This document shows, in pieces, positions 1 to 13,822 of a stretch of 17,267 bases of DNA; the first letter of the stretch is position 1; every line of letters starts with the position of its first letter. The DNA comes from a virus (lineage: Duplodnaviria; Heunggongvirae; Uroviricota; Caudoviricetes): the IMG/VR virus record IMGVR_UViG_2565956714_000008, positions 1 to 17,267 of that record, one strand, 5' to 3'. The position numbers and the translations under genes were made by a program. The notes under the pieces were generated by a model, which ran no database searches, was not told where the DNA came from, and saw only the letters and a program-made list of their open reading frames with translations.

Positions 1-378
1 ATGGACGAACAGTGGGGCTATGTCGGGGCTAAATCGCGCCAGCGCTGGCTGTTTTACGCGTATGACAGTCTCCGGAAGACGGTTGTTGCGCACGTATTCG
101 GTGAACGCACGATAGCGACGCTGGGGCGTCTTATGAGCCTGCTGTCACCCTTTGACGTGGTGATATGGATGACGGATGGCTGGCCGCTGTATGAATCCCG
201 CCTGAAGGGAAAGCTGCACGTAATCAGCAAGCGATATACGCAGCGAATTGAGCGGCATAACCTGAATCTGAGGCAGCACCTGGCACGGCTGGGACGGAAG
301 TCGCTGTCGTTCTCAAAATCGGTGGAGCTGCATGACAAAGTCATCGGGCATTATCTGAACATAAAACACTATCAATAA
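1..378 (+). CDS. insB: IS1 transposase InsB, C-terminal 125 residues (5' end outside window)
   Basis: ORF-track protein ...[72 protein letters not shown] matches the InsB C-terminus as I remember it; stop TAA at 376-378 lies just inside the terminal repeat. Confidence 0.85.
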
Positions 379-393
379 GTTGGAGTCATTACC
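1..393 (+). mobile_element. IS1 insertion sequence, 3'-terminal 393 bp (rest of element lies upstream of window start)
   Basis: 1-378 translates to the C-terminal part of IS1 InsB; 371-393 (atcaataagttggagtcattacc) is the IS1 terminal inverted repeat. Recognised from memory of IS1. Confidence 0.9.
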
Positions 394-1653
394 ATCTTTC
401 TCAACAACCTGCCGGCTCCCGGAGGATATAATTGTTGTGTCAGCTTTCCCGCCGCTTTTGATATTTTGCGTTCCGCTGTTGATATTGGTGCCTGTGGCTA
501 TGCCATAATTATTAATATTCTGTGTGCCACCATTAATTATGGTATTTGTCGCGTTTCCTGCAACATCCATAACCCCGCCATTATCTATTCGGGTCGCATC
601 AGCTTTAGCATTGGTTAAAACTGACATTGTTCCTTTATCTTTAATAATCGTCTTGTTTGCCGAACCATATGCGTTTATGTCTAAATGACCACCGTTTTCC
701 AGCAACACATTGTCTGCCACGTGATTGTGGATGGAGAATGCACCTTCACTATTCGTACCGCTCACCGTCGTACCGTTAGTGTTAGTTTTTAAAATTGCAC
801 CATCGTGCTGGGTAACATTTGTTGCCGTACCACCACTAACATCAAGCACGCCACCAGAATAAACTTCAATAACATCCGAGGTGCTGGTGTTATCAACAAT
901 TTGCGTGCCACCAGAATAGATATGCGTATTTTTTGCCGTTGACTTACTATTCAGAGACTGAGTTCCGCCTTCAATCGTCGTGTCCAGCGCACGGCTCTCA
1001 TATACTCTTTGCTCACCGCCATTTTTAATGGTTGTTGTTTCTACTGTGCTCTGTTCAACATACTGTCGACCACCATTTATGGTTGTGTTCGTTGCCAGAC
1101 TTCCTTGTACTACGTCCTGAGAGCCAGACTTATTTATCGTTGTACCATCAGCATGCCCTTGAACTTTTACTATCTGGCTACCACCATCAATGAGTATTCC
1201 ATTCGCACTCCCTCCCTCTACGCGTGAAGCACCGCCCTTAATTGTCGTTCCATTGCTGATACCCCCTTTATAAACGTCCTGATTGCCACTCTCGATTGTC
1301 GTACCTGTGGAAATACCCCCGTCATGAATTGACTGTCTGCCACCGTTAATGGTTGTATTATTAGCCTGCCCCACAAAATTGTTATGACTTCCTATATCTT
1401 GATATCCACCAGATTCAATAAGACTTCCATTAGATACCCCGCCATGAACATTCTGCTGGCCATGGTTGATAATATGAGTGTTATTTGTTGTACCTCGTTC
1501 ATCCACTTTTTGGTTGCCATCTACAGTCTCATCGTTTACCACACCAATAACATTAGTAGTGAAGGCAGCCATCCCGGGCGGGGCATATATCAAGGCAGAT
1601 ATCAATAAGGAAAGTACTGAGCGGCGACAATAATAGGGACTGGTCCTGTTCAT
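394..1653 (-). pseudogene. ypjA: Autotransporter adhesin gene truncated by IS1: signal peptide plus passenger-domain repeats only, no beta-barrel translocator
   Basis: Minus-strand ORF with probable start ATG at 1653 (GAGGA 8 nt upstream), N-terminal signal-like segment MNRTSPYYCRRSVLSLLISALIYAPPGMAAF, then many ~19-aa repeats of the form TTINGG-Q-V/GG-S-G typical of AIDA/Ag43-type passenger beta-helices. The frame runs straight into IS1 at 393/394 (the ORF-track tail ...[24 protein letters not shown] is IS1-encoded). Symbol assigned from remembered K-12 gene order (ypjA-pinH-ypjB-ypjC-ileY), not from an identity check. Confidence 0.7.
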
Positions 1654-1991
1654 AAATTTCATCCTCTGAAAAGTGAATACTGAGTAGCGTTTAAGCGACC
1701 TTAGCTTTGCTGCAACATCAGCCCACAGGCACCAGACCAGGGGATTCATCCTGAAGAGACAGCGCAAGTGTATTGTGTTCACCGCTCATCAAAGACATCA
1801 TGATGAAATGATGATATTCCGCATAAGAATGAGGCATTTTTTAAACGCAGTGCGCTGAAGTGTGGTTGGATAAAAAAGTCAATCCATTCAGGAAATACGG
1901 GCGTATTCTTTTCTTTCGACAATGAGGCCGTTGGCAAAATAAAATGATTTACATAATCGTTTCTGATGAATATCTTCTGCTCACATAAAAA

Positions 1992-2290
1992 TCACACAAT
2001 AACTTTGAGATCGCAGATTGTTTTACTTTTACAGCATTCGTCCCCCCATTGTTGGGCAAATATAGATTGGGCCAGAGCACGAAAGTTAATACCACGTTCG
2101 CACAGCTCCTCCAACAGCACGACAAGATGCCACATACTGCGCCCCAGTCGGTTCAGTTTACAGACTAGCAGTGCGTTCCCTGCCGATGATGTCCTGACCA
2201 GTTTTTTCAGTCCGGACCTCCTGCCACGGTTTTACGTTGAAGTGGTAACCCTGAGCACGCAGTTCTTCAGTCAGGCGTGGTGCACCGTAA
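1992..2290 (-). pseudogene. pinH: Serine recombinase (invertase/resolvase) relic, frameshifted and truncated
   Basis: Minus-strand translation of about 2040-2170 gives ...[38 protein letters not shown]..., resembling the conserved core of Hin/Gin/Pin-type serine recombinases (pattern WKLDRLGRS...L..L.ERGI.F.SL); the upstream part is in another frame and no intact N-terminal catalytic region is present. Symbol by locus memory only. Confidence 0.5.
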
Positions 2291-2564
2291 CGCTGTTATT
2301 GCTGGGTAAGATCAAAAAACTTTCAGGCAGCTAAGGAAAGTTGAACCAGACATTAGATGAAATATTTCAACCAATTACAGCACCAATTCAGTCACTGCCA
2401 GCCCACCAAATAAATCAAGGGGTTACATGAAAACGTAGCCCCTTTTTCTTTGGTAGTGACACTAAAATGGATGTAGTGTGAAGAATAATCCCGTTTACTC
2501 AATCAATAATACATATTGTTTCAATCTACGTTATTATCTCTTTGTAAAAATTGCCATTTATTAA

Positions 2565-3356
2565 TCATTGAAAACTGCTTTTAGAACTTGATACAACGGG
2601 ACTAGTCACAACAGGACTATTCTCAACGGGATCATCCTCAGAGGAACTATCATCAAAGTCATCATCCATAAATAAAATATCATCGAATGGTGCCACGCCC
2701 GTGATGAGTTTTATTTTATTATTACGATCAGTCAATACTCCACTTAAACCGTTTTCGCTCACAGGTTTTAATGATTTTTCATTACTCTTGTTGTAAGCAG
2801 GCGCATTAAAAATACACGGAGTATCAACATCAAACAATGACGTTCCCCAGTTCACATATTGAATATCATAGTTACTGAAGTTCTGTCCAGAAAAGAAGCA
2901 CCCCTTAAAATCCAATCCACGTAAATTATATAAACCACCCTCTTCTTTTTGGAGAGTAATGTTAATTTTGGCTATCTCCCGGACATCATCGCCATTTTTG
3001 TATTTGAATACCGTTTCAAGATGTTCTCCAGACAGCTTGACTTCAGGAAATAATTTGAAATCAAAGCCTATATTATTATGTGTCAACGTAGATGAACAAA
3101 AAATGGAAAAAGCTTGCAGTGCTGAATTATAGCTATCGATTTTATCTTGAGGCTGAGCTCTTGGTAAAAACTTATAGCAACACTCATAAAAATTAAACAG
3201 AAGCTCTGAAGACCTTGTATTTTTATCAAATAATACCCCCTTGAACTCATTCACAAACGCATCTTTTTTTTCTTGAATATCTATGGGGTGTTCCTTTGAC
3301 TCTGACAAAGATGAAATCTCATCTATTTTGTTTTCATATGAATTACGTGATTCCAT
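2565..3356 (-). CDS. Hypothetical protein, 263 aa, AT-rich, acidic Ser/Asp-rich C-terminus
   Basis: Long uninterrupted minus-strand ORF in AT-rich DNA; no recognisable domain; no clear Shine-Dalgarno before ATG 3356. Position corresponds to ypjB if my recollection of the K-12 gene order is right. Confidence 0.55.
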   Translation of the reverse strand: MESRNSYENKIDEISSLSESKEHPIDIQEKKDAFVNEFKGVLFDKNTRSSELLFNFYECCYKFLPRAQPQDKIDSYNSALQAFSIFCSSTLTHNNIGFDFKLFPEVKLSGEHLETVFKYKNGDDVREIAKINITLQKEEGGLYNLRGLDFKGCFFSGQNFSNYDIQYVNWGTSLFDVDTPCIFNAPAYNKSNEKSLKPVSENGLSGVLTDRNNKIKLITGVAPFDDILFMDDDFDDSSSEDDPVENSPVVTSPVVSSSKSSFQ

Positions 3357-3455
3357 ACAGACATTTGGCGGCGTTTCTAAAATAACACTACGCGTACTAC
3401 TTGGCTTAAGTAAACCAACATGAAAATCACTTTTTCTTATATTATCGAAAAGGTT

Positions 3456-3938
3456 CTATTCATTTCTTTTAGCGCATTCAAAAAACTGATCGGCATTATT
3501 TTTATTCGATAATTTTTTAGTTTCAGAAAACACATTTTCATTGTTTTCCAGCTTTAGTTTAATGAGAAGATTTTCCCAGACCTGCTTGCTTAAACATATT
3601 ACGTCAGGCTCACCAGAACTAACTAACTCGTGATTATTATTAAAGTGTACGTTGAATACCTTTAAGTTATTTTCACCAACTTCATATTTAATACGTTTTA
3701 ATTGTTCTCCAGCTCCCATAATGACAAAGGCGTTGCCTTCTTGATATATACATTCAGACATCATTTTTTGTAAAGTTTCAAGAGCACCGCGATACGTCTC
3801 TGATGCAGCTTCCTTACAAATTAATTTTAAAATACTATGAGCTAGTAGCTCCATGTGTTTAGAAGATTTATTTTCATTATAACTTCCACTACCCAAAACT
3901 GCGCTAGCGTTAAATCCGTTGCTTTTACTAACTAACAT
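3456..3938 (-). CDS. Hypothetical protein, 160 aa, AT-rich
   Basis: Minus-strand ORF with GAGGA 7 nt upstream of ATG 3938; same strand as and 100 bp upstream of the 263-aa ORF (likely co-transcribed). No recognisable domain. Position corresponds to ypjC in K-12 gene order. Confidence 0.55.
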   Translation of the reverse strand: MLVSKSNGFNASAVLGSGSYNENKSSKHMELLAHSILKLICKEAASETYRGALETLQKMMSECIYQEGNAFVIMGAGEQLKRIKYEVGENNLKVFNVHFNNNHELVSSGEPDVICLSKQVWENLLIKLKLENNENVFSETKKLSNKNNADQFFECAKRNE

Positions 3939-4688
3939 TGTCTATTCCTCAATTAATGTCTACATGGCTATTTTTAATGTTATTACTGTTTGTCACTATA
4001 AAAAAACGCTCATTTGAGACAATTACTGACATTAACTGCTTCACTTGCTACGCATGGAACTTTTAATTAAATTAGCACAGGAATGTTAAATTTAATAAAC
4101 AAAAGGTTATTTCGCTGTATGATAAAAAAAACCGTTATAATTTATTAGTGAAAATCGTTTTTCAAGTGTTAGAAATTTATATCTCAATAGCGTTGGTTAA
4201 TGAGCATAGCCACGCTCCTGTAACGCTCACAAAACTCATCTGCCTGCGGCGGGTGTTCTGGTCAGTAGTAGATGTTTAAGGCGTGGCAGAGACATTTCAT
4301 CCTTACTCTACGGCATTGTTCTACATACATTGGTTGTGGTACTCACTTATCATCAGTGAGCGAACAGAGAATAGTTCAGTGATTTGAGTAATTAACCTGA
4401 TTAAATGAAGGGGTATAATAAATGATAATACTCTGGCTTTATCGTTAATTACTTAATTCCACATGTAAGCAATTTGCCCGCTTGGCATAGCAGGCATTTT
4501 TTCCAGGTACTTTTGAATGAGTACTGATGGATAAATACATTGCAGTGGCGTGCCACGTACCAAAACACCAGCCCTCATTCGAAACCACCCACCGCACTTC
4601 TTCCTTGAAATGGCGTTAGTCATGAAATATAGACCGCCATCGAGTACCCCTTGTACCCTTAACTCTTCCTGATACGTAAATAATGATT

Positions 4689-4733
4689 TGGTGGCCCTTG
4701 CTGGACTTGAACCAGCGACCAAGCGATTATGAG
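4689..4733 (-). repeat. att core copy: 45-nt duplicate of the tRNA-Ile2 3' end (acceptor/T-arm to anticodon loop), marking the left boundary of the integrated element
   Basis: tggtggcccttgctggacttgaaccagcgaccaagcgattatgag matches 15430-15474 at 44 of 45 positions (single C/T difference); the sequence diverges immediately after, and the region upstream in tRNA orientation is not tRNA-like. Confidence 0.85.
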
Positions 4734-4842
4734 TTGGTTGATAACCCTTTACTTACAGATACTTAGCGATACTTTTCAATACCTTAGCATTTTTTAAAAC
4801 TACTGTATAAATACCTGTATATACCCCAAAATACTTCTTTAC

Positions 4843-4890
4843 GGTATCCTATAGGTATCCTGGAGCAGAACAAGCGATTTTCCAGGATAC
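4843..4890. promoter_or_regulatory. Putative integrase arm-type binding sites (GGTATCCT direct repeats plus inverted copy)
   Basis: ggtatcctataggtatcctgg at 4843-4863 and inverted copy tccaggatac at 4881-4890; a near-identical block ggtatcctataagtatcctgg occurs at 15367-15387 beside the other att core. Function inferred. Confidence 0.4.
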
Positions 4891-4914
4891 CAGATCGCTT
4901 GGTGGGGTGTATGA

Positions 4915-6336
4915 GTGAAATTATTCAGATTCTCTAAAGTAAAAATTGCAGAACTGCCAACGCCGGAACATGGACAGGTCGAATATGGTGATACGGAGGT
5001 TAACGGGCTGCGTGTCCGTGTAGGTTCGTCTGGTGTGAAAAGTTTCTGCATTTCCCGTAAGCGTAACGGAAAATTTATTCGTGCAACGCTGGGGCGTTTT
5101 CCTGATCTGAGCGTGGATAATGCCAGGGCTAAAGCTATGGAACTCCTTGGCGAAGTCGCCACAACGGGGATAAATCCGAACATAGCAAAGCGCACTAACA
5201 ACAAGGCCATGATAACGCTGAGTGAGGCGATTGACGCCTACGTAAAAAATCGTGGCCACCGCCTGAAACCCTCCACAGAAAAACAGTACCGCAGCATATT
5301 ACAGAATTATTCCGGTGACTGGATGGCCCATACCCTCGCCAGTATTTCCCGCGAACGGGTGGAACAACGGCATAAGGCCATCACTGATGGGGCTGTATGG
5401 TTCGGTGCTGATAAAACCACGTTACGGGCTGGGGTTGGTACAGGAAGCAAGGCACAGGCCGATTTATGGGCGCGTGCGCTACGTGCTGTGTGTCGGTTTG
5501 CGCATGATCATTACCGTGATGATGCGGGTAATACTCTTTTACCGGATCCGCCGACTCTGGTACTGAGCACCAAGCGCCAGTGGCACGGAACGGTAAGAAA
5601 AACGGAACGTATCCGCCTGCATGATTTTCCCCGCTGGTTTGCTGCTGTAGCTGCTGTGCGCGACCAGGGCGAACAGGAAAGGGATGATATAGCTGTTACG
5701 GTATGTGATGCCGTGGAAATGGCACTGTTTACCGGACTGAGGAAATCAGAAGTTTTTGGCCTTACGTGGGATCGCGTGAATATGGGCGGTCGCTTTTTCT
5801 GGATAGACACCACGAAAAACGGGGATCCGCTTGAACTGCCGATCACTGATACGTTGCGGAAAATGTTTCTTCGCAGGCTAAAAAACAAAGCTGCTGATGA
5901 TGTGCTGGTGTTTCCTGGCGTGAAGGGAGTGATTCAGGAGACACGGCACATCATAGACCGGATAAGCGCGGCTACCATTCCTGAGGCGAACGATGAAATG
6001 CTCTTCCCTGTCCCGTTTAAGTGGCACGACGCACGCCGGACGTTCGGAACGGTTGCTGAGCTGGTGGGCGTGGGTAATTACATCCTCAAGCGCCTGATGA
6101 ATCACCGCACTATGCGAAGTGCCGACGTAACGCAGGGGTATTTACATTTCGGTGCTGATGAACTGCTGGAGCCAGCATCACGGATAGAACGGGCAATTCT
6201 GGAACATGCCGGGCTGGTGGAGAGTAAAAAATCTATCGATGCGCAATTACTTTCCGCACTGGAGGGCATGAGTGATGATGAAAAACGTCGTTTACTATTT
6301 GCTATAGTACAAGAAAAGAATGACATATATGGGTGA
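4915..6336 (+). CDS. int: Tyrosine recombinase / integrase, P4-like with N-terminal arm-binding domain
   Basis: 473-aa ORF starting GTG 4915. The N-terminus (LPTPEHGQVEYGDTEVNGLRVRVGSSGVKSFCISRKRNGKFIRATLGRFPDLSVDNARAKAMELLGEV) fits the arm-binding domain pattern of P4-family integrases; C-terminal region has catalytic-domain signatures (LFTGLRKSEV, HDARRTFGT, TQGYLHF). Lies 180 bp inside the att repeat. Confidence 0.9.
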   Translation: MKLFRFSKVKIAELPTPEHGQVEYGDTEVNGLRVRVGSSGVKSFCISRKRNGKFIRATLGRFPDLSVDNARAKAMELLGEVATTGINPNIAKRTNNKAMITLSEAIDAYVKNRGHRLKPSTEKQYRSILQNYSGDWMAHTLASISRERVEQRHKAITDGAVWFGADKTTLRAGVGTGSKAQADLWARALRAVCRFAHDHYRDDAGNTLLPDPPTLVLSTKRQWHGTVRKTERIRLHDFPRWFAAVAAVRDQGEQERDDIAVTVCDAVEMALFTGLRKSEVFGLTWDRVNMGGRFFWIDTTKNGDPLELPITDTLRKMFLRRLKNKAADDVLVFPGVKGVIQETRHIIDRISAATIPEANDEMLFPVPFKWHDARRTFGTVAELVGVGNYILKRLMNHRTMRSADVTQGYLHFGADELLEPASRIERAILEHAGLVESKKSIDAQLLSALEGMSDDEKRRLLFAIVQEKNDIYG

Positions 6337-7045
6337 TAACAATATATCGGTCAAACAATATATTATTTATTCGGTTATGAATGATTTAATTACTGGTGGG
6401 CGAGACTCTTCAGTTTTAAACGTTCCTGTATCTTTATCCCCGAAAAACTCCACCATAGAGGCTATAAAACGCTTGATTGATGATATAAGAGATTATTTTT
6501 ATAAATCAAAGTATCCAACAAGAGAATTTCTTTTGTGTTATGGTTTAGAATTAAGAGAAATCGAGCAATATCCTATTGAATTAGCTATAAGAATGGATTC
6601 ATGTGGTTTTTTAATATTTGATAGTAAACTATCTTGTCAGGTTGTCGATACTTTAAATTCAGCAGTTGCATTGTACCATGTCGGAATGCGTAATCACGCA
6701 GACAAACTTACTAGGGTTGGTGTTGAGTTATTGCTTAATGACTTTTTTGAAGAAATTATATCGAACCATGAAAAAGATAAAAAAATAAAAGATGCTTTAT
6801 CCTTATCACAGAAAGAAAAAGCGCGCAAACCAAGAAATCATTATTACAATGAAGTTATGCACGTAATTAAACTAACATGGGAAAAGTACCCTAAAGCCAG
6901 TAAAACAGGTTTATTGAACGAGCTTTCTGTTTACTATCATGGGAAAGTAAGTAAAAACACTCTGGATAAATGGATTAAAGAATCAGGAGCACAACCACCA
7001 AGACCTGATAAATATTCTTCGTTTGAACTTGTTCACCCCCAATAG
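6320..7045 (+). CDS. Hypothetical protein, 241 aa, markedly AT-rich cargo gene; possible HTH near C-terminus
   Basis: ORF overlaps the integrase stop by 17 nt (ATG 6320; alternative ATG 6329). Base composition is visibly more AT-rich than the flanking integrase and regulator genes. No recognisable catalytic motif; C-terminal KASKTGLLNELSVYYHGKVSKNTLDKWIKE looks HTH-like. Confidence 0.55.
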   Translation: MTYMGDNNISVKQYIIYSVMNDLITGGRDSSVLNVPVSLSPKNSTIEAIKRLIDDIRDYFYKSKYPTREFLLCYGLELREIEQYPIELAIRMDSCGFLIFDSKLSCQVVDTLNSAVALYHVGMRNHADKLTRVGVELLLNDFFEEIISNHEKDKKIKDALSLSQKEKARKPRNHYYNEVMHVIKLTWEKYPKASKTGLLNELSVYYHGKVSKNTLDKWIKESGAQPPRPDKYSSFELVHPQ

Positions 7046-7073
7046 CTGGCTAGTGTATCTTAATAGCTGGCTA
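7041..7073. repeat. Two direct repeats aatagctggcta spaced 21 bp, upstream of the Xis/AlpA-like gene
   Basis: aatagctggcta at 7041-7052 and 7062-7073; a partial third copy (ctggctatt) near 7110. Possible regulator binding sites. Confidence 0.3.
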
Positions 7074-7150
7074 TTAAGGCTAAATAACTGGTAACCTCCC
7101 CACAGCAACTGGCTATTGGGCTAAAAACAAAATACCCATTGATTGATATT

Positions 7151-7184
7151 TATCACCGTTGTTACTTAGAAGTACACGGTGATA
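7151..7184. promoter_or_regulatory. Inverted repeat TATCACCGT-N16-ACGGTGATA overlapping the ribosome-binding region of the downstream HTH gene; candidate operator
   Basis: Perfect 9-bp arms at 7151-7159 and 7176-7184. The half-site TATCACCG resembles lambda-type operator half-sites, although the spacing differs from lambda operators. Confidence 0.4.
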
Positions 7185-7187
7185 GAT

Positions 7188-7397
7188 ATGAATTTAAAGA
7201 AATCTGATTTATCAACTGACCGCCTTACACGTGCTGAAGCTGCTGCCTACCTTGGCGTTAACAATCAAACGCTGGCGAACTGGGCCTGTACTGGCAAGGT
7301 AAAAATCCCTTTCCATAAGCTGGGGCGCAAAGTGCTGTATATGCGCACTGATCTCGATGCTTATCTTGCATCCACTCGCAGAACGCAGACGGTGTAA
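7188..7397 (+). CDS. Xis/AlpA-superfamily helix-turn-helix DNA-binding protein (excisionase-like or induction regulator)
   Basis: 69 aa from ATG 7188 (track start GTG 7179). LTRAEAAAYLGVNNQTLANWACTGKVKIPFHKLGRKVLYMRTDLDAYL fits the excisionase-family HTH pattern (L..EAA.YLGVS..TL..W...G.IP..K.GR...Y...DLDAYL). Confidence 0.75.
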   Translation: MNLKKSDLSTDRLTRAEAAAYLGVNNQTLANWACTGKVKIPFHKLGRKVLYMRTDLDAYLASTRRTQTV

Positions 7398-7744
7398 GGG
7401 GGAGTGATGGCACATAAAACAAAGGCGACCGCAGAGGGCCGCCAGTGGCATAACACTAAACTTGAGCATATCCAGAATACCAGGTTGTTGGCTGGTGGGC
7501 AATGCTATCAGTCTGGCTCGATTCGCTGCCATGCCTGCAATGAGCGTATTTTCCTAGAATACTCTTTAAGGTACTTCTCAAGGATAAACGCACATGGTGC
7601 GAATCTCTCCGGTTCATGTTCGTTTACCGCATTTTTGCGTTGTTTTTTCTTGGATGAGGATAATTTCTTTAATGATTTGTCAGTCATCGTAGATACCTGT
7701 AACCCTGTGCGCCACAGTTCACCGCACCACGGCGCTGGTGATGG

Positions 7745-7870
7745 TTACTCCTGCTCTTTGGCCTTGCGCCGCTGGCGGCGTTTGATCTCATCAAGGATTT
7801 TTCTTGGTAAGAAGCCTGCTGGTTTATTCTCTGGTAGAGAAAGTTTGTTATCGGTCTGCTTTTCAGTCAT
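7745..7870 (-). CDS. Small basic protein, 41 aa, translationally coupled to the upstream RHH gene
   Basis: ATG at 7870 lies 3 nt after the RHH stop codon (ATGtaTGA arrangement); encodes MTEKQTDNKLSLPENKPAGFLPRKILDEIKRRQRRKAKEQE. Below the ORF-track length cut-off; a weak call. Confidence 0.25.
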   Translation of the reverse strand: MTEKQTDNKLSLPENKPAGFLPRKILDEIKRRQRRKAKEQE

Positions 7871-7873
7871 ACA

Positions 7874-8065
7874 TCAGCCTTTAGGTTCAATGCCGCGTCG
7901 CTTTAGTTCGGCACGAGCTAATTCTTTAAACCAATTGCCGAGGGTTAGGCCATCGGCGGTTGCTGCCTCGTTTACTTGCTGGCGTAGTTCTTTGCTAATT
8001 CGTATCTGGAATGTCGGCGACCATCCCTCGCCGCGTGGTGATTTATCCCGCTTTAATGTTGACAT
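7874..8065 (-). CDS. Ribbon-helix-helix (Arc/CopG-like) DNA-binding protein, candidate repressor
   Basis: 63 aa; ...FQIRISKELRQQVNEAATADGLTLGNWFKELARAEL has the beta-strand/helix/helix layout of RHH proteins. Its start codon is embedded in a perfect palindromic operator (8064-8109). Confidence 0.6.
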   Translation of the reverse strand: MSTLKRDKSPRGEGWSPTFQIRISKELRQQVNEAATADGLTLGNWFKELARAELKRRGIEPKG

Positions 8066-8109
8066 GTACGTACGTAACTCCTATTATCATCAATATTACG
8101 TACGTACAT
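8064..8109. promoter_or_regulatory. Palindromic operator: two copies of the self-complementary 10-mer TACGTACGTA within perfect 14-bp inverted arms, in the divergent promoter region
   Basis: atgtacgtacgtaa (8064-8077) and ttacgtacgtacat (8096-8109) are exact reverse complements, separated by 18 bp that include the RHH gene's AGGAG ribosome-binding site. Confidence 0.55.
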
Positions 8110-8133
8110 TAACAGTAAGTGCAACAAAAAACA

Positions 8134-8168
8134 AAGCCCCGCAAGTGTCGTTACCACTCGCAGGGCTT
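8134..8168 (-). terminator. Hairpin with 12 of 14 paired bases, followed by a U-run on the minus strand only
   Basis: aagccccgcaagtg / cactcgcagggctt with loop tcgttac; A-tract 8121-8133 gives UGUUUUUUGUU after the hairpin on the minus strand. On the plus strand it would sit in the 5' UTR of the replication operon. Function uncertain. Confidence 0.3.
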
Positions 8169-8204
8169 CTAACCACCAACGATAACGAGAGTATCGAGGT
8201 AGCT

Positions 8205-8408
8205 ATGAGAAATCATACCATACACCCGCAAGGGCGGGATTCGCACAACCTGAATAAATTCGCCTGGCGTTTTATCGCCCTGAGCGCCGCAAAACCGCGT
8301 GTGATTACCATCGTGGCCACCAGCGAACAGGAAGCACGCCAGCACTCCCCGGCTGGCTGCGTGATGGTATTCGCCGCCCGTATTCGTCAGGGGGTGTGCC
8401 ATGCCTGA
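8205..8408 (+). CDS. Hypothetical protein, 67 aa, first gene of the plus-strand operon leading to the replication gene
   Basis: ATG 8205 with GAGGT 5 nt upstream; codon usage on this strand is typical of E. coli coding DNA (ctg, gcc, acc, atc, cgt, ccg), unlike the overlapping antisense ORFs; stop overlaps the next start (8401). Confidence 0.45.
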   Translation: MRNHTIHPQGRDSHNLNKFAWRFIALSAAKPRVITIVATSEQEARQHSPAGCVMVFAARIRQGVCHA

Positions 8409-8721
8409 TATGTCAAATTACCAGTACCTGATTAATCCGCATTTTAACTGTGAGCATGATATTGCTAAAAAGGTTTATTCCGCTGCGGATGGGGCGACTG
8501 ACAATATATCAATGGCCGTTGCGTCAATTGGTAGCCTGATGTGGCATGCGTCAGAAAATGAGGACTATGACGAAAAGGCCATGCGCATTGATATGGGTAA
8601 TATCGGTTTGTTACTGGCAATGCTTGGACATTTTGATATTTCGTTACGGTGCACCATTGAAAATGCCACAGATGCATTAAATGCCATAAAGAAAGCGAAT
8701 ACTGATTCAAATCGGGGATAA
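8401..8721 (+). CDS. Hypothetical protein, 106 aa
   Basis: ATG 8401 with GGGGG 6 nt upstream; overlaps the preceding stop; no recognisable domain. Confidence 0.5.
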   Translation: MPDMSNYQYLINPHFNCEHDIAKKVYSAADGATDNISMAVASIGSLMWHASENEDYDEKAMRIDMGNIGLLLAMLGHFDISLRCTIENATDALNAIKKANTDSNRG

Positions 8722-8727
8722 ATAATC

Positions 8728-9027
8728 ATGAGAACGTATTTATCTGGCTTGACTGCCAGCGGTTATGCACATCCCAAAATTATCCCCGGCGCTATTTATC
8801 TGGATAAGAACGGTAACAGAGTAACGGTAAAAGAACTGATGTTTGACCGTGTGTATTTTATTCGTGATGGCTATTCATTTCATAGTTCGCTGAACGTGGA
8901 GATCTTTATTAGCAGATTCAGGCGGGAAATCCCGCTTTCCAGAAATAACCATGTGTCACGTGTGAATGTGGATAAAAAACTACAGGAACTGAAAAACATG
9001 ATTGCCGCGTGGAGAGAGCAGAAATGA
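8728..9027 (+). CDS. Hypothetical protein, 99 aa
   Basis: ATG 8728 (GGGGA 9 nt upstream); its stop overlaps the replication-gene start (ATGA at 9024-9027), indicating translational coupling. Confidence 0.5.
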   Translation: MRTYLSGLTASGYAHPKIIPGAIYLDKNGNRVTVKELMFDRVYFIRDGYSFHSSLNVEIFISRFRREIPLSRNNHVSRVNVDKKLQELKNMIAAWREQK

Positions 9028-10841
9028 AAAAAGCGCCAAATTTAAAACACCAGTCGCGTGACAAAATGACGGAAGTCATCATTTTTGCGGGTAGTGATGC
9101 GTGGGCACATGCGAAGCAGTGGCAGGAACAGGACGGGCGACTGGCTGGCGATAACGTGCCTCCTGTCTGGCTTGGAGAGCAACAACTTGCCGAACTGGAC
9201 AACCTGCAAATCGTACCGGACGGACGCTATCGCGTGCGTCTCTATCAGGCGGGGTTATTGCGTCCGGGGCTTGTTAATACCATCGGGCAGAAACTGGCAG
9301 CGGCAGGTGTCAGGGATGCTGATTATTATCCTGAAGGAATGCACAGCCAGAAACGGGAGAACTGGCGCGAATATCTGGAACGTGAACGGGCAGAGCAGGC
9401 GGAAAAGAAAAAGGTAGTTGAACTGCCTGTAAAGAAAAAAGAGCGGGTAAAAGACGATAACGCTTCATCACTGGCGCTTAACCAGATGGGAGCAAGTCAA
9501 CGCGGCGAAGTTCTCCTGGCACATTATGGCGGTGAATTGGCGATTCATGCTGACTCTGACACTGTTCACCATTACAACGGCGTTGTATGGGAGCCAGTAC
9601 AGGATAAAGAATTACAGCGAGCTATGGCACAGATTTTCATTGATGCGGAGATCAGCTATTCGCAGAACGCCATTAAATCGGCGGTCGATACCATGAAGTT
9701 AAGTTTGCCTGTAATGGGGAATACAGCCCGTAACCTGATTGGATTCAGTAACGGGGTATTTGATACCAGAACAGGTAATTTTCGGGGGCATAACAAAAAC
9801 GACTGGTTGTTAATTGCCAGTGAATTACCTTTCAGCCCACCAGCAGAGGGGGAAACACTGGCAACACATGCGCCGAATTTCTGGAAGTGGTTACGCCGTT
9901 CGGTGGCTGAGAATGACCGCAAGGCAGATCGCGTACTGGCGGCATTATTCATGGTGCTGGCGAACCGGTACGACTGGCAGTTATTCATTGAGGTAACAGG
10001 GCCGGGGGGAAGTGGTAAAAGCGTGATGGCGGAGATTTGCACCATGCTGGCGGGTAAGGCTAATACAGTATCAGCAAGCATGAAGGCGCTGGAAGATGCA
10101 AGGGAACGTGCGTTAGTGGTTGGCTTTTCGCTGATTATCATGCCGGATATGACCCGCTACGCTGGTGATGGGGCAGGGATTAAGGCCATTACAGGCGGTG
10201 ACAAGGTGGCAATTGACCCGAAACACAAAGCCCCCTACTCAACGCGTATTCCGGCAGTAGTGCTGGCGGTTAACAATAACGCCATGTCATTCAGTGACCG
10301 CAGCGGGGGGATCTCACGTCGTCGGGTGATATTCAATTTTTCGGAAGTTGTACCGGAGAACGAACGCGATCCGATGCTGGCGGAAAAAATAGAAGGTGAG
10401 CTGGCGGTAGTGATTCGCCATCTGCTTACACGGTTTGCTGACCAGGACGAAGCCAGACGCCTGTTATATGAGCAGCAGAAATCTGAAGAAGCACTGGCGA
10501 TAAAGCGAGAGGGGGATTCGCTGGTGGACTTCTGCGGCTATCTCATGGCGTCGGTAATGTGTGATGGCCTGTTAGTGGGTAATGCTGAAATTGTGCCATT
10601 CAGCCCGCGCAGGTATCTCTATCATGCCTATCTGGCTTATATGAGGGCTCATGGGTTTGGTAAACCTGTAACACTGACGCGCTTCGGTAAAGATATGCCT
10701 GGGGCAATGGCGGAATATGGCAGGGAGTATATAAAACGGAAAACGAAGCACGGTTTACGTTCAAACGTGACACTGACGGAGGAATCAGAAGACTGGATGC
10801 CATCATGTGTATCAGTCACTAATGACGATAGCAAAAATTAA
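9024..10841 (+). CDS. Replication initiator: primase/SF3-helicase-like P-loop NTPase (Pri-Rep type)
   Basis: 605 aa from ATG 9024 (GGAGAGAG 5 nt upstream; track start GTG 9009). Walker A VTGPGGSGKSVMAEIC and a downstream hydrophobic-acidic segment (LIIMPDM) as candidate Walker B, in the C-terminal half; immediately followed by an iteron cluster as in PICI/SaPI and P4-type replication modules. The N-terminal half has no motif I can assign. Confidence 0.8.
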   Translation: MKKAPNLKHQSRDKMTEVIIFAGSDAWAHAKQWQEQDGRLAGDNVPPVWLGEQQLAELDNLQIVPDGRYRVRLYQAGLLRPGLVNTIGQKLAAAGVRDADYYPEGMHSQKRENWREYLERERAEQAEKKKVVELPVKKKERVKDDNASSLALNQMGASQRGEVLLAHYGGELAIHADSDTVHHYNGVVWEPVQDKELQRAMAQIFIDAEISYSQNAIKSAVDTMKLSLPVMGNTARNLIGFSNGVFDTRTGNFRGHNKNDWLLIASELPFSPPAEGETLATHAPNFWKWLRRSVAENDRKADRVLAALFMVLANRYDWQLFIEVTGPGGSGKSVMAEICTMLAGKANTVSASMKALEDARERALVVGFSLIIMPDMTRYAGDGAGIKAITGGDKVAIDPKHKAPYSTRIPAVVLAVNNNAMSFSDRSGGISRRRVIFNFSEVVPENERDPMLAEKIEGELAVVIRHLLTRFADQDEARRLLYEQQKSEEALAIKREGDSLVDFCGYLMASVMCDGLLVGNAEIVPFSPRRYLYHAYLAYMRAHGFGKPVTLTRFGKDMPGAMAEYGREYIKRKTKHGLRSNVTLTEESEDWMPSCVSVTNDDSKN

Positions 10842-10853
10842 ACTTATGGAATA

Positions 10854-11085
10854 ACTGTTCACCACTGTTCACCCTGTCATAAATATCTTTTATATCAGTA
10901 TATTATAGGGTGAACAGTTATTTATGAACTATTCACCAAACTATTCACTGTTCACCTTTTTGGTTGTTTATTGAGCTTCAAGGGTGAACAGTGGTGAACA
11001 GTTGGTGAATAGTTTTTGTAAAACTGTTCACCCCTTAACAGTATGAATTTAAATGGAAAATATCAAAAGGTGAACAGGTGAAGGG
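10854..11085. repeat. Iteron-type replication origin: about 11 copies of ACTGTTCACC / GGTGAACAGT in both orientations within AT-rich spacers
   Basis: tgttcacc at 10856-10863, 10866-10873, 10949-10956, 11025-11032; variant tattcacc at 10930-10937; inverted ggtgaaca at 10909-10916, 10983-10990, 10993-11000, 11069-11076; variants ggtgaata at 11004-11011 and ggtgaagg at 11078-11085. Several copies are tandem with ~10-bp period. Confidence 0.7.
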
Positions 11086-11128
11086 TTAAAATACAAAAAT
11101 TTTAATTTATTGCTCTGAGATAAAGCCT

Positions 11129-11374
11129 ATGACAGCGAAGCGCACAAAAAAAACACAATCGCACGCCCTTGATTTGACGGAACACTGGTTAAGGGGGTCG
11201 ATAAAAATCATCGACCGCAACGCCGGGGAAGGATACGCGAAAGCACATCCCGAACTGATAAGCGCATTCATGACCACGGCGGCGGCAAATTTTGCCACGC
11301 TAACAGAGCGGGAGATTGCCGAAGCGGAACAGGTAACAACCATCAACGTTAAAACCGGAGAGCAGACAGCATGA
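11129..11374 (+). CDS. Hypothetical protein, 81 aa
   Basis: ATG 11129 with only a weak ribosome-binding site; stop overlaps the SSB start (ATGA at 11371-11374). No recognisable domain. Confidence 0.45.
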   Translation: MTAKRTKKTQSHALDLTEHWLRGSIKIIDRNAGEGYAKAHPELISAFMTTAAANFATLTEREIAEAEQVTTINVKTGEQTA

Positions 11375-11793
11375 CAGCACAGATAGCGGCTTACGGACGG
11401 CTGGTGGCTGACCCGCAGTTAAAGACCACTAGCAAGGGTACACAAATGACGATGGCTAGTATGGCGGTCCCCCTTCCGTGCAGCCAGGCAGATGACGGAA
11501 CGGCGACGATGTGGTTATCCGTCCTGGCGTTTGGCAGACAGGCCGACGCACTGGCAAAACACCACAAAGGCGAACTGGTGAGCGTGGCGGGTAACATGCA
11601 GGTAAGCCAGTGGACAGGCCAGAACGGCGAAACGCGGCAGGGCTGGCAGGTTATCGCAGACAGTGTAATCAGTGCCAGAACGGCGCGACCGGGCGGCAAA
11701 AAAGGTCAACAGGGCCAGGCTACTGACGCACTGAACAGGGCAAAACAACAGTCGGGGAATGATGATCCGTACGGCGATAATATACCGTTTTAA
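11371..11793 (+). CDS. ssb: Single-stranded DNA-binding protein (SSB) with acidic C-terminal tip
   Basis: 140 aa; OB-fold region WLSVLAFGRQADALAKHHKGELVSVAGNMQVSQWTGQNGETRQGWQVIAD parallels E. coli SSB ([51 protein letters not shown]); Gly/Gln-rich linker and C-terminal DDPYGDNIPF resembling the SSB tail DDDIPF. Confidence 0.8.
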   Translation: MTAQIAAYGRLVADPQLKTTSKGTQMTMASMAVPLPCSQADDGTATMWLSVLAFGRQADALAKHHKGELVSVAGNMQVSQWTGQNGETRQGWQVIADSVISARTARPGGKKGQQGQATDALNRAKQQSGNDDPYGDNIPF

Positions 11794-11803
11794 ATTCTGC
11801 AAA

Positions 11804-11839
11804 TAAAAAAATGCCGGAAGAAAATAGATTTTCCGGCAT
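11804..11839 (-). terminator. Stable hairpin (9-bp stem ATGCCGGAA/TTCCGGCAT) between ssb and the capsid gene, forming a canonical intrinsic terminator only in the minus orientation
   Basis: Stem 11811-11819 and 11831-11839, loop 11 nt; A-run 11804-11810 gives a U-run after the hairpin on the minus strand; no U-run follows it on the plus strand. Confidence 0.35.
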
Positions 11840-12010
11840 GCTACATAAATCCCGACCAAAGGAAGTAAATACATTAACACGAATTATCAGCACTGAAGTT
11901 GTCACGGCAGATTTTATACAACATTGCACTTGGTTGCATGTATTCGCATAGCAAATATCGGTGATAGCATATATCCACAATTATTTTTAATGAATGCAAA
12001 GAGGATGCGT

Positions 12011-13051: not shown

Positions 13052-13061
13052 GGGGGGAGCA

Positions 13062-13403
13062 ATGGCTACTCATTACACTGAACTCATGGCTGGCACTGAA
13101 GCACTGGTTACTACGCTGGGGATATTTTCAGCTAATAAAGGGGTAATTCCTGCATTTACGCCACTGATGCAGGAAGATACAACAGGTGCACTGGTGGTAT
13201 GGGATGGTACGAGTGCAGGTAAAGCTGTTTATGTTTCCGCTGTACAACTCGATACAGCGAAAAAAACACAGGCTCAGGTCTATAAGACAGGTGTCTTAAA
13301 TGTTGATGCTCTTAACTGGCCTGAGTCAGTAAAAGAACTGTCAGTAAAGGTTGCAGCGTTTGTTGGCTCAGGTATTTCTGTTCAGCCGCTGGCTCGTGTG
13401 TAA
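13062..13403 (+). CDS. Head decoration protein, lambda gpD family
   Basis: 113 aa from ATG 13062 (GGGGGGAG upstream). IPAFTPLMQEDTTGALVVWDGTSAGKAV...KTGVLNVDALNWPE...AAFVGSGISV parallels lambda gpD [28 protein letters not shown]...KSGTFRYEDVLWPE...TAFAGTAISIV. Confidence 0.85.
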   Translation: MATHYTELMAGTEALVTTLGIFSANKGVIPAFTPLMQEDTTGALVVWDGTSAGKAVYVSAVQLDTAKKTQAQVYKTGVLNVDALNWPESVKELSVKVAAFVGSGISVQPLARV

Positions 13404-13414
13404 AGGGGGATACA

Positions 13415-13798: not shown

Positions 13799-13822
13799 TG
13801 AAATTAGGGCCCGTTCTGGCTG

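What the first reader, a model, noticed from the sequence alone, without database searches (positions are those of the whole stretch)
6320..7045. AT-rich cargo gene wedged between the integrase and the Xis/AlpA-like gene
This 241-aa ORF is visibly more AT-rich than its neighbours and overlaps the integrase stop, so it is likely co-transcribed with int. It has no recognisable enzymatic motif but a probable C-terminal HTH. Satellites and prophages commonly carry accessory or anti-phage genes at such int-proximal positions; alternatively it could be a regulator that senses the helper.
Basis: inference. Interest (0 to 1): 0.5.

Follow-up and report, generated by a model that had tools for sequence, protein, structure and literature searches.

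The report
Integrase-coupled DNA-binding gene of a phage satellite
The AT-rich gene after the integrase is probably not cargo: it belongs to an unnamed protein family present in every related enterobacterial phage satellite examined, and it most likely binds four evenly spaced DNA sites in front of the satellite's master switch gene alpA.

Summary
An ORF at 6320/6329..7045 (+) has 32.6% GC, against 51% for int, and overlaps the int stop codon. The likely start is ATG 6329 (238 aa).

The "cargo / anti-phage" reading is not supported. Every related island examined (E. coli, Salmonella, Yersinia, Morganella, Citrobacter, Klebsiella and others) has a homologue in the same slot: after int, before the AlpA-like gene. 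Its start overlaps or abuts the int stop.

The family has no Pfam, NCBIfam, PADLOC or phage match. It has three parts:
- a hypervariable N-terminal ~100 aa;
- a conserved helical hairpin;

Directly after the stop codon lie four ~10-bp sites (TAGCTGGCTA-like) at exactly 21-bp spacing (7043-7115). The positions 0/21/42/63 are conserved across divergent islands. The site sequence tracks the protein's C-terminal type (Mantel r = 0.75), not Int or the AlpA HTH.

Best reading: a two-module DNA-binding regulator, translationally coupled to int, that gates alpA. Its swappable N-terminal module is a candidate helper-phage sensor. The sign of regulation is unresolved. The closest described analogue is iolg of Vibrio PICMI satellites.

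The parts
4689..4735 (.). Left att repeat. It is a 46-nt copy (one mismatch) of the 3' part of tRNA-Ile2(CAT) and marks the left boundary of the island.
   Evidence: A direct repeat with 15430-15475 (36 nt of it exact, 4699-4734 = 15440-15475). Island-free E. coli genomes match the window only up to 4734.
4843..4891 (.). GGTATCC(TGG) repeats upstream of int: two direct (4843, 4854) and one inverted (4885). A further copy lies at 15367-15387 at the other island end. These are candidate Int arm-type sites of attP and differ from the array motif.
   Evidence: Four of the six GGTATCC/GGATACC occurrences in the window lie in the two att-proximal arms. Function is inferred.
4915..6336 (+). Tyrosine integrase (473 aa).
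   Evidence: Pfam Arm-DNA-bind_3 (2.5e-13) and Phage_integrase (1.1e-12). RefSeq calls it 'tyrosine-type recombinase/integrase'.
6329..7045 (+). Gene X, the subject of the finding: 238 aa (alternative start 6320, 241 aa). It is an int-overlapping gene of an unnamed enterobacterial satellite family.
   Evidence: There are 85 representative clusters at 50% identity. All are annotated 'hypothetical' and none has a Pfam domain.
6329..6631 (+). Hypervariable N-terminal module (aa 1-~101), helical, 31% GC. Candidate input or sensor module.
   Evidence: About 30-35% identity between alleles whose C-termini are 92-100% identical. N and C types are found in all six combinations. Most phmmer hits align only from about aa 100 onward.
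6632..6820 (+). Conserved helical hairpin (aa 102-165) with motif LNSA..L...G..N.A..L and a roughly 45-residue helix. Probable oligomerisation or stalk element.
   Evidence: AF2 gives pLDDT 92-98 for this segment. G119 and A124 are invariant or nearly so. The oligomerisation role is inferred.
6821..7042 (+). C-terminal winged-helix-like domain (aa 166-238). Conserved motif: KPRN.YY.EVM.VI.LTWEKYP.ASKTGL...L..HY.GKVS.N.L..WIK.SG..PP.P.KY..F.LV.PQ.
7043..7115 (+). Array of four ~10-bp sites at exact 21-bp spacing: TAGCTGGCTA (7043), TAGCTGGCTA (7064), TAACTGGTAA (7085), CAACTGGCTA (7106). The first site contains the X stop codon. Predicted binding sites of the X winged-helix domain.
   Evidence: the cluster is unique in the window; positions 0/21/42/63 recur across the 13 type-A loci, all four detected in two and two or three in the rest. 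They lie at 3/23/43/63 in four of the 7 type-B loci (the other three are shifted by 3-6 nt), with a different motif, A(A/T)CCAGAT; the motif tracks the X C-terminal type. Binding itself is inferred, not shown.
7146..7189 (+). Inverted repeat or RNA hairpin: ATATTTATCACCGT (7146-7159) and ACGGTGATAGATAT (7176-7189). It would sequester the alpA Shine-Dalgarno (GGTGAT) and the first bases of the AUG.
   Evidence: MFE -21.9 kcal/mol for the 61-nt leader. Across 13 loci, 79.6% of cells are paired against 31-53% for slid controls. Covariation score is 0.23 against 0.115 or less, with 0 of 500 shuffles reaching it. G·U wobbles are tolerated.
7188..7397 (+). alpA-like gene (HTH_17, 69 aa; the ORF list starts it at GTG 7179). 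It occupies the slot of the PICI master activator/excisionase AlpA.
   Evidence: Pfam HTH_17 1.4e-11. RefSeq start equivalent to 7188. The role of AlpA is taken from PMC6092414, PMC11773190 and PMC10803314.
15430..15505 (-). tRNA-Ile2 (anticodon CAT; ARAGORN labels it tRNA-Met). Its 3' part, 15430-15475, is the right att repeat.
   Evidence: RefSeq annotates the equivalent gene as tRNA-Ile.

Best explanation
Proposed function. Gene X is a core regulatory component of the satellite's integration/induction module, not cargo. It encodes a modular DNA-binding protein. Its translation is coupled to that of the integrase, because its start codon lies inside or at the int stop codon.

Proposed mechanism. 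The conserved C-terminal winged-helix domain, held on a long helical stalk, recognises four ~10-bp sites spaced exactly two helical turns apart. The sites start at its own stop codon and end about 70 bp upstream of alpA. By occupying this array, X sets the expression of alpA, the gene whose product triggers excision and the satellite's lytic programme.

Proposed modularity. The N-terminal ~100 residues are an interchangeable input module, most plausibly the surface that receives a helper-phage cue or another partner. The C-terminal domain plus array form an interchangeable 'immunity-type' specificity pair.

Sign of regulation. I favour repression or gating of alpA in the integrated state, by analogy with repressors co-transcribed with int (the P2 C-int and 186 cI-int operons, from my own knowledge) and with SaPI Stl. 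Activation is nearly as likely.

Shown here:
- gene, composition and overlap with int;
- conserved synteny;
- domain architecture and fold class;
- the phased array and its conservation;
- co-variation of array motif with C-terminal type.

Inferred:
- DNA binding;
- the effect on alpA;
- the sensing role of the N-terminus;
- the sign of regulation.
For: 1. Conserved synteny. int -> X -> HTH_17/alpA is present in all related loci with sequence available: L001-L005 in E. coli, 25 IMG/VR loci, and Yersinia, Morganella, Citrobacter, Pluralibacter and Klebsiella loci.

2. Coupling to int. The int stop and X start overlap or abut by 0-41 nt in 20 of 21 loci, and ATGA is the junction in 9.

3. Homologous alleles. 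85 E. coli genomes share the int 3' end and alpA; 22 of them carry this allele at 80% coverage or more, and the listed remainder carry other X alleles in the same slot, in a span of 1597-1788 bp and never empty. The four alternative alleles translated are distant homologues sharing the C-terminal motif.

5. The array. Four sites lie at 7043, 7064, 7085 and 7106 with exact 21-bp spacing. Positions 0/21/42/63 from the stop recur across the 13 type-A loci, although the site sequences differ and flip orientation: all four are detected in two loci and two or three in the rest. Type-B alleles have A(A/T)CCAGAT sites at 3/23/43/63 in four of the 7 loci; the other three are shifted by 3-6 nt.

6. The motif follows the X C-terminus, not Int or AlpA.
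- The Int arm-binding domain is 95-100% identical across alleles that have different motifs.
- L005 shares the AlpA HTH of L002 but has a different X C-terminus and different repeats.
- L039 has the AlpA HTH of L013 (type A) but a type-B X and a type-B array.
- L025 and L027 have different AlpA HTHs but a type-A X and TAGCCAGCTA sites.
- Mantel test of array similarity: r = 0.75 against X C-terminal identity (p = 2e-4), 0.23 against the AlpA HTH, 0.34 against the X N-terminus. Partial correlations are 0.77, 0.35 and 0.20.

7. Domain shuffling. Three N-types and two C-types occur in all six combinations. L002 and L004 share a 92% identical C-terminus and the same array, but their N-termini are 34% identical.

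8. Literature.
- alpA is the phage-induced master switch of Gram-negative PICIs, and whether these elements have a master repressor is described as unclear (PMC6092414).
- An int-overlapping gene between int and alpA is required for excision of PICMI115 (PMC10803314).
Against: - No direct evidence of DNA binding or of any effect on alpA.
- The C-terminal coding region and the array are physically adjacent. Co-inheritance by linkage could produce much of the correlation, and the AlpA HTH control lies 60-100 bp further from the array.
- No convincing sigma-70 promoter was found by the scan in the X-alpA spacer. The position of the array relative to PalpA is therefore uncertain and the sign of regulation cannot be read off.
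- In PICMI115, deleting iolg abolished excision rather than derepressing it (PMC10803314). This argues against a simple repressor if the two genes are functional equivalents.
- As I read PMC6092414, EcCICFT073 seems to have alpA directly after int, and its alpA promoter is activated by AlpA alone. X would then not be universally needed in PICIs.
Confidence: 0.5

Rival explanations
1. X is a recombination accessory factor, the functional equivalent of PICMI IOLG. It is made in fixed ratio with Int and acts with Int and AlpA in the excision (or integration) complex. On this view the phased array is an architectural DNA-bending or loading site, not a transcriptional operator.
For: - Same position and same int-stop overlap as iolg, with ATGA the most frequent junction (PMC10803314).
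- In PICMI115, the iolg deletion abolishes excision (PMC10803314).
- Direct repeats phased at two helical turns are typical of excisionase and RDF binding sites (my own knowledge of lambda Xis X1/X2 and P2 Cox boxes).
Against: - The array is about 2.2 kb from the att repeats (4689-4735 / 15430-15475), on the far side of int. No further cluster of the motif lies in the attP arms; the nearest copy is a single 1-mismatch site at 14967.
- Int is 93-97% identical across alleles whose X proteins are only about 30% identical. This is hard to reconcile with a co-evolving Int partner.
- No homology to PICMI IOLG has been shown.
Confidence: 0.2
2. X is accessory cargo. It would be an anti-phage or superinfection-exclusion protein placed in an int-proximal hotspot, with its diversity driven by an arms race with phages.
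For: - Strong AT-richness and extreme N-terminal diversity.
- Rare in E. coli: this allele is in 24 of 5426 complete genomes.
- Satellites are reported to carry defence hotspots (PMC10803314, citing Rousset 2022 and Fillol-Salom 2022).
- Four of 42 family members give weak PADLOC 'mad1' hits, best E = 4e-4.
Against: - The slot is never empty and always holds the same family. A hotspot would hold unrelated systems.
- The window protein has no PADLOC hit.
- No enzymatic or effector domain is present; the only recognisable domain is a winged helix.
- The gene carries a cognate phased DNA array that co-varies with it.
- AT-richness is family-wide, so it is not a mark of recent capture.
Confidence: 0.08
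3. The four-site array is bound by something other than X, such as AlpA autoregulation, a helper-phage protein or a host nucleoid protein. X would then work through protein-protein contacts only, and the motif/C-terminus association would be a linkage artefact.
For: - AlpA is a positive autoregulator and must bind near its own promoter (PMC6092414, PMC11773190).
- The recombination cassette that differs between alleles also includes the first ~25 codons of alpA, with part of its HTH.
Against: - The array type is uncoupled from the AlpA HTH type in several loci: L005 against L002, L039 against L013, and L025/L027 against the window.
- The partial Mantel for AlpA is 0.35, against 0.77 for the X C-terminus.
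- The core CCAG/CTGG is retained in all array types, in parallel with the invariant T-W...P...W core of the X domain.
Confidence: 0.12

Closest known systems
iolg (integrase-overlapping gene) of Vibrio PICMI satellites (Barcia-Cruz et al. 2024, PMC10803314)
   Same: - It lies between int and alpA on the same strand.
[quoted passage not shown]
- It has no known domain.
- It is split into many divergent families.
- It sits in a phage satellite whose switch is AlpA.
   Different: - No sequence relationship was tested, because the PICMI sequences are not held here.
- The hosts are Enterobacterales rather than Vibrionaceae.
- No DNA-binding domain or cognate site array is reported for iolg in the passages I read.
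- The iolg phenotype (needed for excision) is experimental, whereas nothing has been tested for X.
Stl / Rpr master repressors of SaPIs and other Gram-positive PICIs (as summarised in PMC6092414)
   Same: - It is encoded next to int, at the boundary with the excision/replication operon.
- It is a DNA-binding protein with an HTH.
- It is extremely divergent between islands.
- It is modular, with one DNA-binding part and one part that (for Stl) binds a helper-phage protein.
- It would fill the 'missing regulator' role in Gram-negative PICIs.
   Different: - Domain order is reversed; from my own knowledge, the Stl HTH is N-terminal.
- X is co-directional with alpA and int, not divergently transcribed.
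- There is no sequence or specific fold similarity.
- Repression and derepression by a phage protein are untested for X.
Immunity repressor-int operons with a Cox/Apl-type excisionase-regulator in P2/186-like phages (my own knowledge, not tested here)
   Same: - The same three players: integrase, a DNA-binding regulator co-expressed with it, and a small winged-helix excisionase/regulator.
- Repeated, phased operator sites.
- Regulator-operator pairs that are exchanged as cassettes between relatives.
   Different: - Gene order and orientation differ: C/cI is upstream of int and divergent from cox/apl.
- There is no homology.
- X carries an additional hypervariable module.
Generic winged-helix DNA-binding domains (ArgR/AhrC N-domain, PadR, MarR/SarX, MecI, Fur/PerR)
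   Different: No Pfam or PDB sequence-profile match. The wing is formed by the extreme C-terminal F-x-L-V strand. The domain is attached to a ~45-residue helix.

Membership tests
iolg-type gene of phage satellites (PICMI definition, PMC10803314) | Located between int and alpA, on the same strand. | tested here: met
   int 4915-6336, X 6329-7045, alpA 7188-7397, all on the + strand. The same order is seen in all related loci.
iolg-type gene of phage satellites (PICMI definition, PMC10803314) | Start codon overlaps the int stop (1, 4 or 13 nt in PICMIs, ATGA most frequent). | tested here: met
   The overlap here is 8 nt (ATGGGTGA). In 20 of 21 relatives it is 0-41 nt, with ATGA in 9.
iolg-type gene of phage satellites (PICMI definition, PMC10803314) | Required for helper-induced excision. 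| not testable with these tools
   Needs a non-polar knockout and an excision PCR or qPCR.
iolg-type gene of phage satellites (PICMI definition, PMC10803314) | Sequence homology to one of the 13 PICMI iolg/icg families. | not tested
All named members of the X family are Enterobacterales.
Stl/Rpr-type PICI master repressor | DNA-binding HTH domain. | tested here: met
   Winged-helix fold at the C-terminus. Met at fold level only.
Stl/Rpr-type PICI master repressor | Divergently transcribed from the excision/replication operon, with operators in the shared intergenic region. | tested here: not met
   X is co-directional with alpA. A site array does lie in the X-alpA spacer.
Stl/Rpr-type PICI master repressor | Represses the island; relieved by binding a helper-phage protein. 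| not testable with these tools
   Needs reporter, knockout and interaction experiments.
Anti-phage defence system in a satellite hotspot | Match to a known defence protein model. | tested here: not met
   PADLOC gives no family for the window protein. Only sporadic weak hits appear among 42 relatives.
Anti-phage defence system in a satellite hotspot | The slot holds unrelated, interchangeable systems, or is empty, among related elements. | tested here: not met
   The slot always holds one gene of the same family.
Recombination directionality factor (Xis/AlpA/Cox type) | Small (~60-100 aa) winged-helix protein. | tested here: not met
   X is 238 aa with two extra modules. The HTH_17 gene at 7188-7397 fits that description instead.
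Recombination directionality factor (Xis/AlpA/Cox type) | Binding sites lie within an attP arm next to the core. | tested here: not met
   The array at 7043-7115 is about 2.2 kb from the att repeats. There is no cluster of the motif near att.
Gram-negative PICI-type phage satellite (host element) | int, alpA and primase in one direction; size about 10-15 kb; a tRNA or other dedicated att site; no tail or lysis genes. | tested here: met
   The island spans 4736-15475 (~10.7 kb) between 46-nt repeats of tRNA-Ile2. It carries int, HTH_17, DUF4222, D5-type primase, SSB, capsid E, decoration D and a terminase small subunit as annotated in the identical RefSeq island. No portal, protease or TerL was seen, so I do not file it as a capsid-forming PICI.

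The most novel reading that the evidence does not exclude
X could be the missing helper-phage-responsive regulator of a large group of Gram-negative PICIs, a functional analogue of SaPI Stl built from unrelated parts. A hypervariable N-terminal module would bind a helper-phage protein. An exchangeable winged-helix/operator pair would give each island its own 'immunity type'. Together they would decide when alpA fires. The conserved anti-Shine-Dalgarno hairpin in the alpA leader would add a second, translational lock against read-through from the int-X transcript.
Probability: 0.25. Interest if true: 0.8.

Novelty: new variant of a known kind. Interest (0 to 1): 0.58.

Why it matters
How a helper phage switches on alpA in Gram-negative PICIs is an open question. 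[quoted passage not shown] PMC10803314 ends by asking how the helper activates the early regulon and how AlpA, Int 'and probably IOLG' cooperate.

This analysis gives that anonymous int-overlapping gene a concrete, testable anatomy in enterobacterial satellites:
- a winged-helix domain;
- a predicted four-site operator directly upstream of alpA;
- natural domain-swap alleles that separate DNA specificity from the N-terminal module.

Gel shifts, reporter fusions and chimeras could settle the question quickly. If it holds, X alleles would predict which satellites respond to which helpers and which satellites can coexist in one cell. If it fails, the gene is still a conserved, unannotated core component that satellite-finding tools could use as a marker.

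Tried and rejected
Searches that gave nothing useful:
- Pfam, NCBIfam, PHROGs and PADLOC on the protein gave no significant family.
- The same Pfam and PADLOC scans on 42 relatives gave only scattered single hits: HTH_32, Exc, MerR_1, mad1.
- A profile search against PDB sequences gave nothing below E = 0.07.
- Foldseek against BFVD viral structures gave nothing.
- The AlphaFold-DB library was not available.
- tblastn against 50,697 phage records gave no match.
- Scanning genome contigs with the family alignment failed. There was no conserved stretch with A3 and no confirmed hit with A1.

Readings considered and rejected:
- The array as Int arm-type sites. The Int arm-binding domain is 95-100% identical across alleles that have different arrays. 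A different repeat (GGTATCC) sits in the att arms.
- The array as AlpA sites. The array type is uncoupled from the AlpA HTH type.
- A housekeeping gene fragment. No such similarity exists, and the family is found only next to satellite integrases.

Not resolved:
- Locating the alpA promoter. The consensus scan found nothing on the + strand in the spacer. My manual candidate is TTGGGC, 16 nt, ATTGAT; its -10 is better in relatives (CATAAT, TATCAT). It is weak, so the sign of regulation stays open.
- EcCIMP1_002, the gene between int and alpA in a studied E. coli PICI, is described as only about 10% of the size of UvrB (PMC11773190). It is probably not an X homologue.
Full report
**1. The observation**

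The window contains an ORF at 6320..7045 on the + strand, 241 aa from the first ATG. RefSeq, in an identical copy of the island in E. coli 06-00048, and the gene callers behind the protein database both start it at the next ATG, 6329 (238 aa, 'hypothetical protein' WP_021536612.1). Homologues align from that methionine.

The integrase ORF ends at 6336. The two genes therefore overlap by 8 nt (ATGGGTGA), or by 17 nt from 6320.

| Gene | GC | GC3 |
|---|---|---|
| X | 32.6% | 24.7% |
| int | 51.1% | 49.6% |
| alpA-like gene | 47.0% | 46.6% |
| primase | 50.8% | 51.9% |

Pfam, NCBIfam, PHROGs and PADLOC give no family.

**2. The element that carries the gene**

- The flanks are a 46-nt direct repeat (one mismatch), 4689-4735 and 15430-15475. 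It is the 3' part of a tRNA with anticodon CAT at 15430-15505. RefSeq annotates the equivalent gene as tRNA-Ile.
- Sequence 1-4734 is ordinary E. coli chromosome (ypjA autotransporter, ypjCB/DUF5507-DUF5508, a recombinase). It is found without the island in thousands of genomes. The island is therefore about 4736-15475, roughly 10.7 kb.
- Its genes all run in one direction: int, X, an HTH_17 AlpA/Xis-like gene, an Icd-like gene, DUF4222, a D5-type primase, SSB, a lambda-E-type major capsid protein, a lambda-D-type decoration protein, a second AlpA-family ORF and a small terminase.
- This is the organisation of Gram-negative phage-inducible chromosomal islands (PMC6092414, PMC10111431). I saw no portal, protease or large terminase, so I do not call it a capsid-forming PICI.

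**3. The gene is not a variable cargo slot**

This allele is rare. It occurs in 24 of 5426 complete E. coli genomes, always once and always chromosomal.

When I searched with the int 3' end through alpA, 85 genomes matched. Of these, 22 carry this allele at 80% coverage or more. The rest match only the two flanks, yet the span between the flanks is almost the same, 1597-1788 bp.

In the four such loci I fetched, the slot holds another ORF of 206-266 aa. It is also annotated hypothetical and also overlaps the int stop. These ORFs are distant homologues of X. They share a C-terminal motif (T-W-x-K-Y-P ... W-[IL]-K ... P..P.K ... L-V) while the N-terminal part is unalignable.

- An exhaustive phmmer search of 1.84 billion representative proteins found only 85 clusters, all 186-273 aa apart from a handful of fragments (65-149 aa). 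Most match from about residue 100 to the C-terminus.
- A profile search returned members from Salmonella, Yersinia, Morganella, Proteus, Pluralibacter, Citrobacter, Phytobacter, Raoultella and Klebsiella. All are 'hypothetical' with no Pfam domain.
- None was found in 50,697 phage genomes.

**4. Synteny is invariant**

- In 25 IMG/VR contigs and 10 further loci from six genera, X always follows an integrase of the same clade (60-100% identical). It always precedes an HTH_17/AlpA-like gene 117-168 nt downstream.
- In 20 of 21 loci with the int end available, the X start overlaps or abuts the int stop by 0-41 nt, and ATGA is the junction in nine. The exception, L026, is a truncated pseudogene.
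- AT-richness is also a family trait. X has 32-40% GC against 41-57% for the adjacent int in all 24 loci, and the N-terminal part is the lowest.
- Low GC here therefore does not indicate a recent, idiosyncratic acquisition.

**5. Architecture of the protein**

AF2 with a 13-sequence alignment gives an all-helical model with pLDDT 80. A model of residues 102-238 with 22 sequences reaches pLDDT 91.3. That model shows:
- a helix;
- a roughly 45-residue helix;
- a compact three-helix unit closed by a short beta contact from the extreme C-terminal F-E-L-V.

The N-terminal ~100 residues evolve almost freely. In the close relatives, three N-types and two C-types occur in all six combinations. L002 and L004 have C-termini 92% identical but N-termini only 34% identical. 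Recombination thus treats the two halves as separate modules.

**6. A phased DNA array follows the gene**

The X stop codon TAG is the first three bases of TAGCTGGCTA (7043). The same decamer recurs at 7064, TAACTGGTAA at 7085 and CAACTGGCTA at 7106, so the spacing is exactly 21 bp.

Over the whole window the degenerate pattern is no more frequent than chance (6 matches found, 5.95 expected). However, four of the six lie in this 73-bp stretch in perfect phase.

The same geometry recurs across the 13 'type-A' loci. Sites fall at 0, 21, 42 and 63 nt from the stop codon even where their sequence and orientation differ (TAGCCAGCTA, TAACCGGCTA, TTACTGGTTA). At the one-mismatch threshold, all four are detected in two loci and two or three in the others. 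The seven 'type-B' loci carry A(A/T)CCAGAT sites; four have them at 3, 23, 43 and 63 and three are shifted by 3-6 nt, and the last two sites form an inverted pair. More distant alleles have TAGCCTGGCTA or TAACCGGCTA pairs. A CCAG/CTGG core is common to most array types (types A and B and some distant alleles).

**7. What the array tracks**

- Int cannot explain the array. Its N-terminal arm-binding domain is 95-100% identical across alleles with unrelated arrays. A different repeat, GGTATCC(TGG), marks the att-proximal arms.
- AlpA is a weaker candidate than X.
  - L005 shares the AlpA HTH of L002 but has a different X C-terminus and a different array.
  - L039 has the AlpA HTH of the type-A locus L013 but a type-B X and a type-B array.
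  - L025 and L027 have other AlpA HTHs but a type-A X and type-A sites.
- Over 24 distinct loci, array k-mer similarity correlates as follows:

| Array similarity against | Mantel Spearman r | Partial correlation |
|---|---|---|
| X C-terminal identity | 0.75 (p = 2e-4) | 0.77 |
| AlpA HTH identity | 0.23 | 0.35 |
| X N-terminal identity | 0.34 | 0.20 |

- Caveat: the C-terminal codons abut the array, so linkage contributes to this signal. The AlpA HTH, 60-100 bp on the other side, is only an approximate control.

**8. Mechanism proposed**

X is a DNA-binding protein made together with Int. Through its winged helix it occupies the four phased sites just upstream of alpA and so gates the gene that triggers excision and the satellite programme. 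The AlpA role is taken from PMC6092414, PMC11773190 and PMC10803314. The exchangeable C-domain/array pair would act like an immunity specificity. The freely varying N-module would be the input, plausibly a helper-phage protein.

Which way X acts is unresolved.
- For repression: regulators co-expressed with int in P2/186-type phages, and Stl of SaPIs, are repressors. Diversification of operator specificity is typical of immunity systems.
- For activation or a recombination role: the array ends next to a weak promoter-like element (TTGGGC, 16 nt, ATTGAT; CATAAT or TATCAT in relatives). This is my manual reading, and the consensus scan found no promoter. It would put the sites near -40, -61, -82 and -103. 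In addition, the only studied int-overlapping gene, iolg of PICMI115, is required for excision (PMC10803314).

My estimates:

| Reading | Probability |
|---|---|
| Site-specific regulator of alpA | ~0.5 |
| Recombination cofactor | ~0.2 |
| Non-DNA-binding role, array bound by another factor | ~0.12 |
| Defence or cargo | ~0.08 |

**9. Comparison with what is known**

The closest described thing is iolg. It has the same place, the same overlap with int and the same lack of annotation, in satellites governed by AlpA. Its authors list 13 unrelated families of unknown function and ask how IOLG acts (PMC10803314). I could not test homology.

Functionally, the nearest model is the Stl/Rpr repressor of Gram-positive PICIs. 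However, the divergent-transcription feature is not met, and the domain order is reversed.

In the papers I searched I found no description of this enterobacterial family, of its winged-helix domain or of the array. I therefore rate it a new variant of a known kind: an int-coupled accessory gene of satellites, now with a specific predicted activity.

**10. A related feature**

Immediately before alpA lies a 14-bp inverted repeat, 7146-7159 and 7176-7189. As RNA it would bury the Shine-Dalgarno GGUGAU and the AUG (MFE -21.9 kcal/mol).

Across 13 divergent loci:
- 79.6% of cells pair, against 31-53% when one arm is slid;
- five pairs show double changes, for example UAUCACC/GGUGAUA becoming CCUCACC/GGUGAGG;
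- G·U wobbles are tolerated.

This favours an RNA structure over a protein operator. It could keep read-through transcripts from int-X translationally silent for alpA. This is an inference and needs 5'-end mapping.

**11. Verdict**

The sequence observation is right. The 'cargo / anti-phage' interpretation is not supported. The 'regulator' alternative is the best-supported reading, now with a concrete predicted binding site. Nothing here is experimental. The DNA-binding claim rests on fold class, site geometry and co-variation.

Noticed in passing
window 7146-7189: A conserved 14-bp stem (ATATTTATCACCGT / ACGGTGATAGATAT) would sequester the alpA Shine-Dalgarno and start codon. Thirteen related loci show compensatory and wobble changes. 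The arms also happen to resemble lambda operator half-sites (TATCACCG; my own recollection). It may act as a translational lock against read-through from int-X.
   Followed up: partly
window 13415-13798 (+): A second AlpA-family ORF (127 aa, Pfam Phage_AlpA PF05930, E = 1.4e-8) sits in the late region, after the capsid and decoration genes. RefSeq calls it hypothetical. The island thus has two AlpA/Xis-type proteins, as reported for EcCIMP1 (PMC11773190).
   Followed up: no
window 4689-4735 and 15430-15475; locus L001: The same island, 100% identical over int-X-alpA, sits at two different chromosomal tRNA-Ile2(CAT) loci. In the window it is next to ypjA/ypjCB. In E. coli 06-00048 it is between nfeF and the tRNA-Ile/mug locus, and there an IS21 element interrupts its terminase gene.
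   Followed up: partly
window 4843-4891 and 15367-15387: GGTATCC(TGG) repeats (two direct, one inverted, plus a copy at the far end of the island) lie in the two arms that would form attP. They are likely Int arm-type sites. Four of the six occurrences in the window are here.
   Followed up: partly
window 2565-3938 (-): Two AT-rich (32-35% GC) genes just outside the island match DUF5508 (E = 1.8e-186) and DUF5507 (E = 4.2e-110). RefSeq calls them YpjCB family. They are chromosomal neighbours, not part of the satellite.
   Followed up: no
locus L026 2859-3532: In one IMG/VR contig the X gene is truncated. The ORF is 141 aa, about 250 nt separate it from the int stop, and the N-terminal part is out of frame. 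The four-site array is retained. This looks like a natural X pseudogene and could show what loss of X does.
   Followed up: no
window 7404-8408 (+): A 334-aa GTG ORF spans the region in which RefSeq annotates only small genes: two short hypotheticals on the minus strand and an Icd-like gene. The long ORF is probably spurious.
   Followed up: no
alignment A1 (P0002-P0011): The recombination breakpoint between N- and C-modules falls at the conserved linker EKA(S/R)KPRN (about aa 160-168). Window X and P0003 are 100% identical after it and about 30-35% identical before it.
   Followed up: partly
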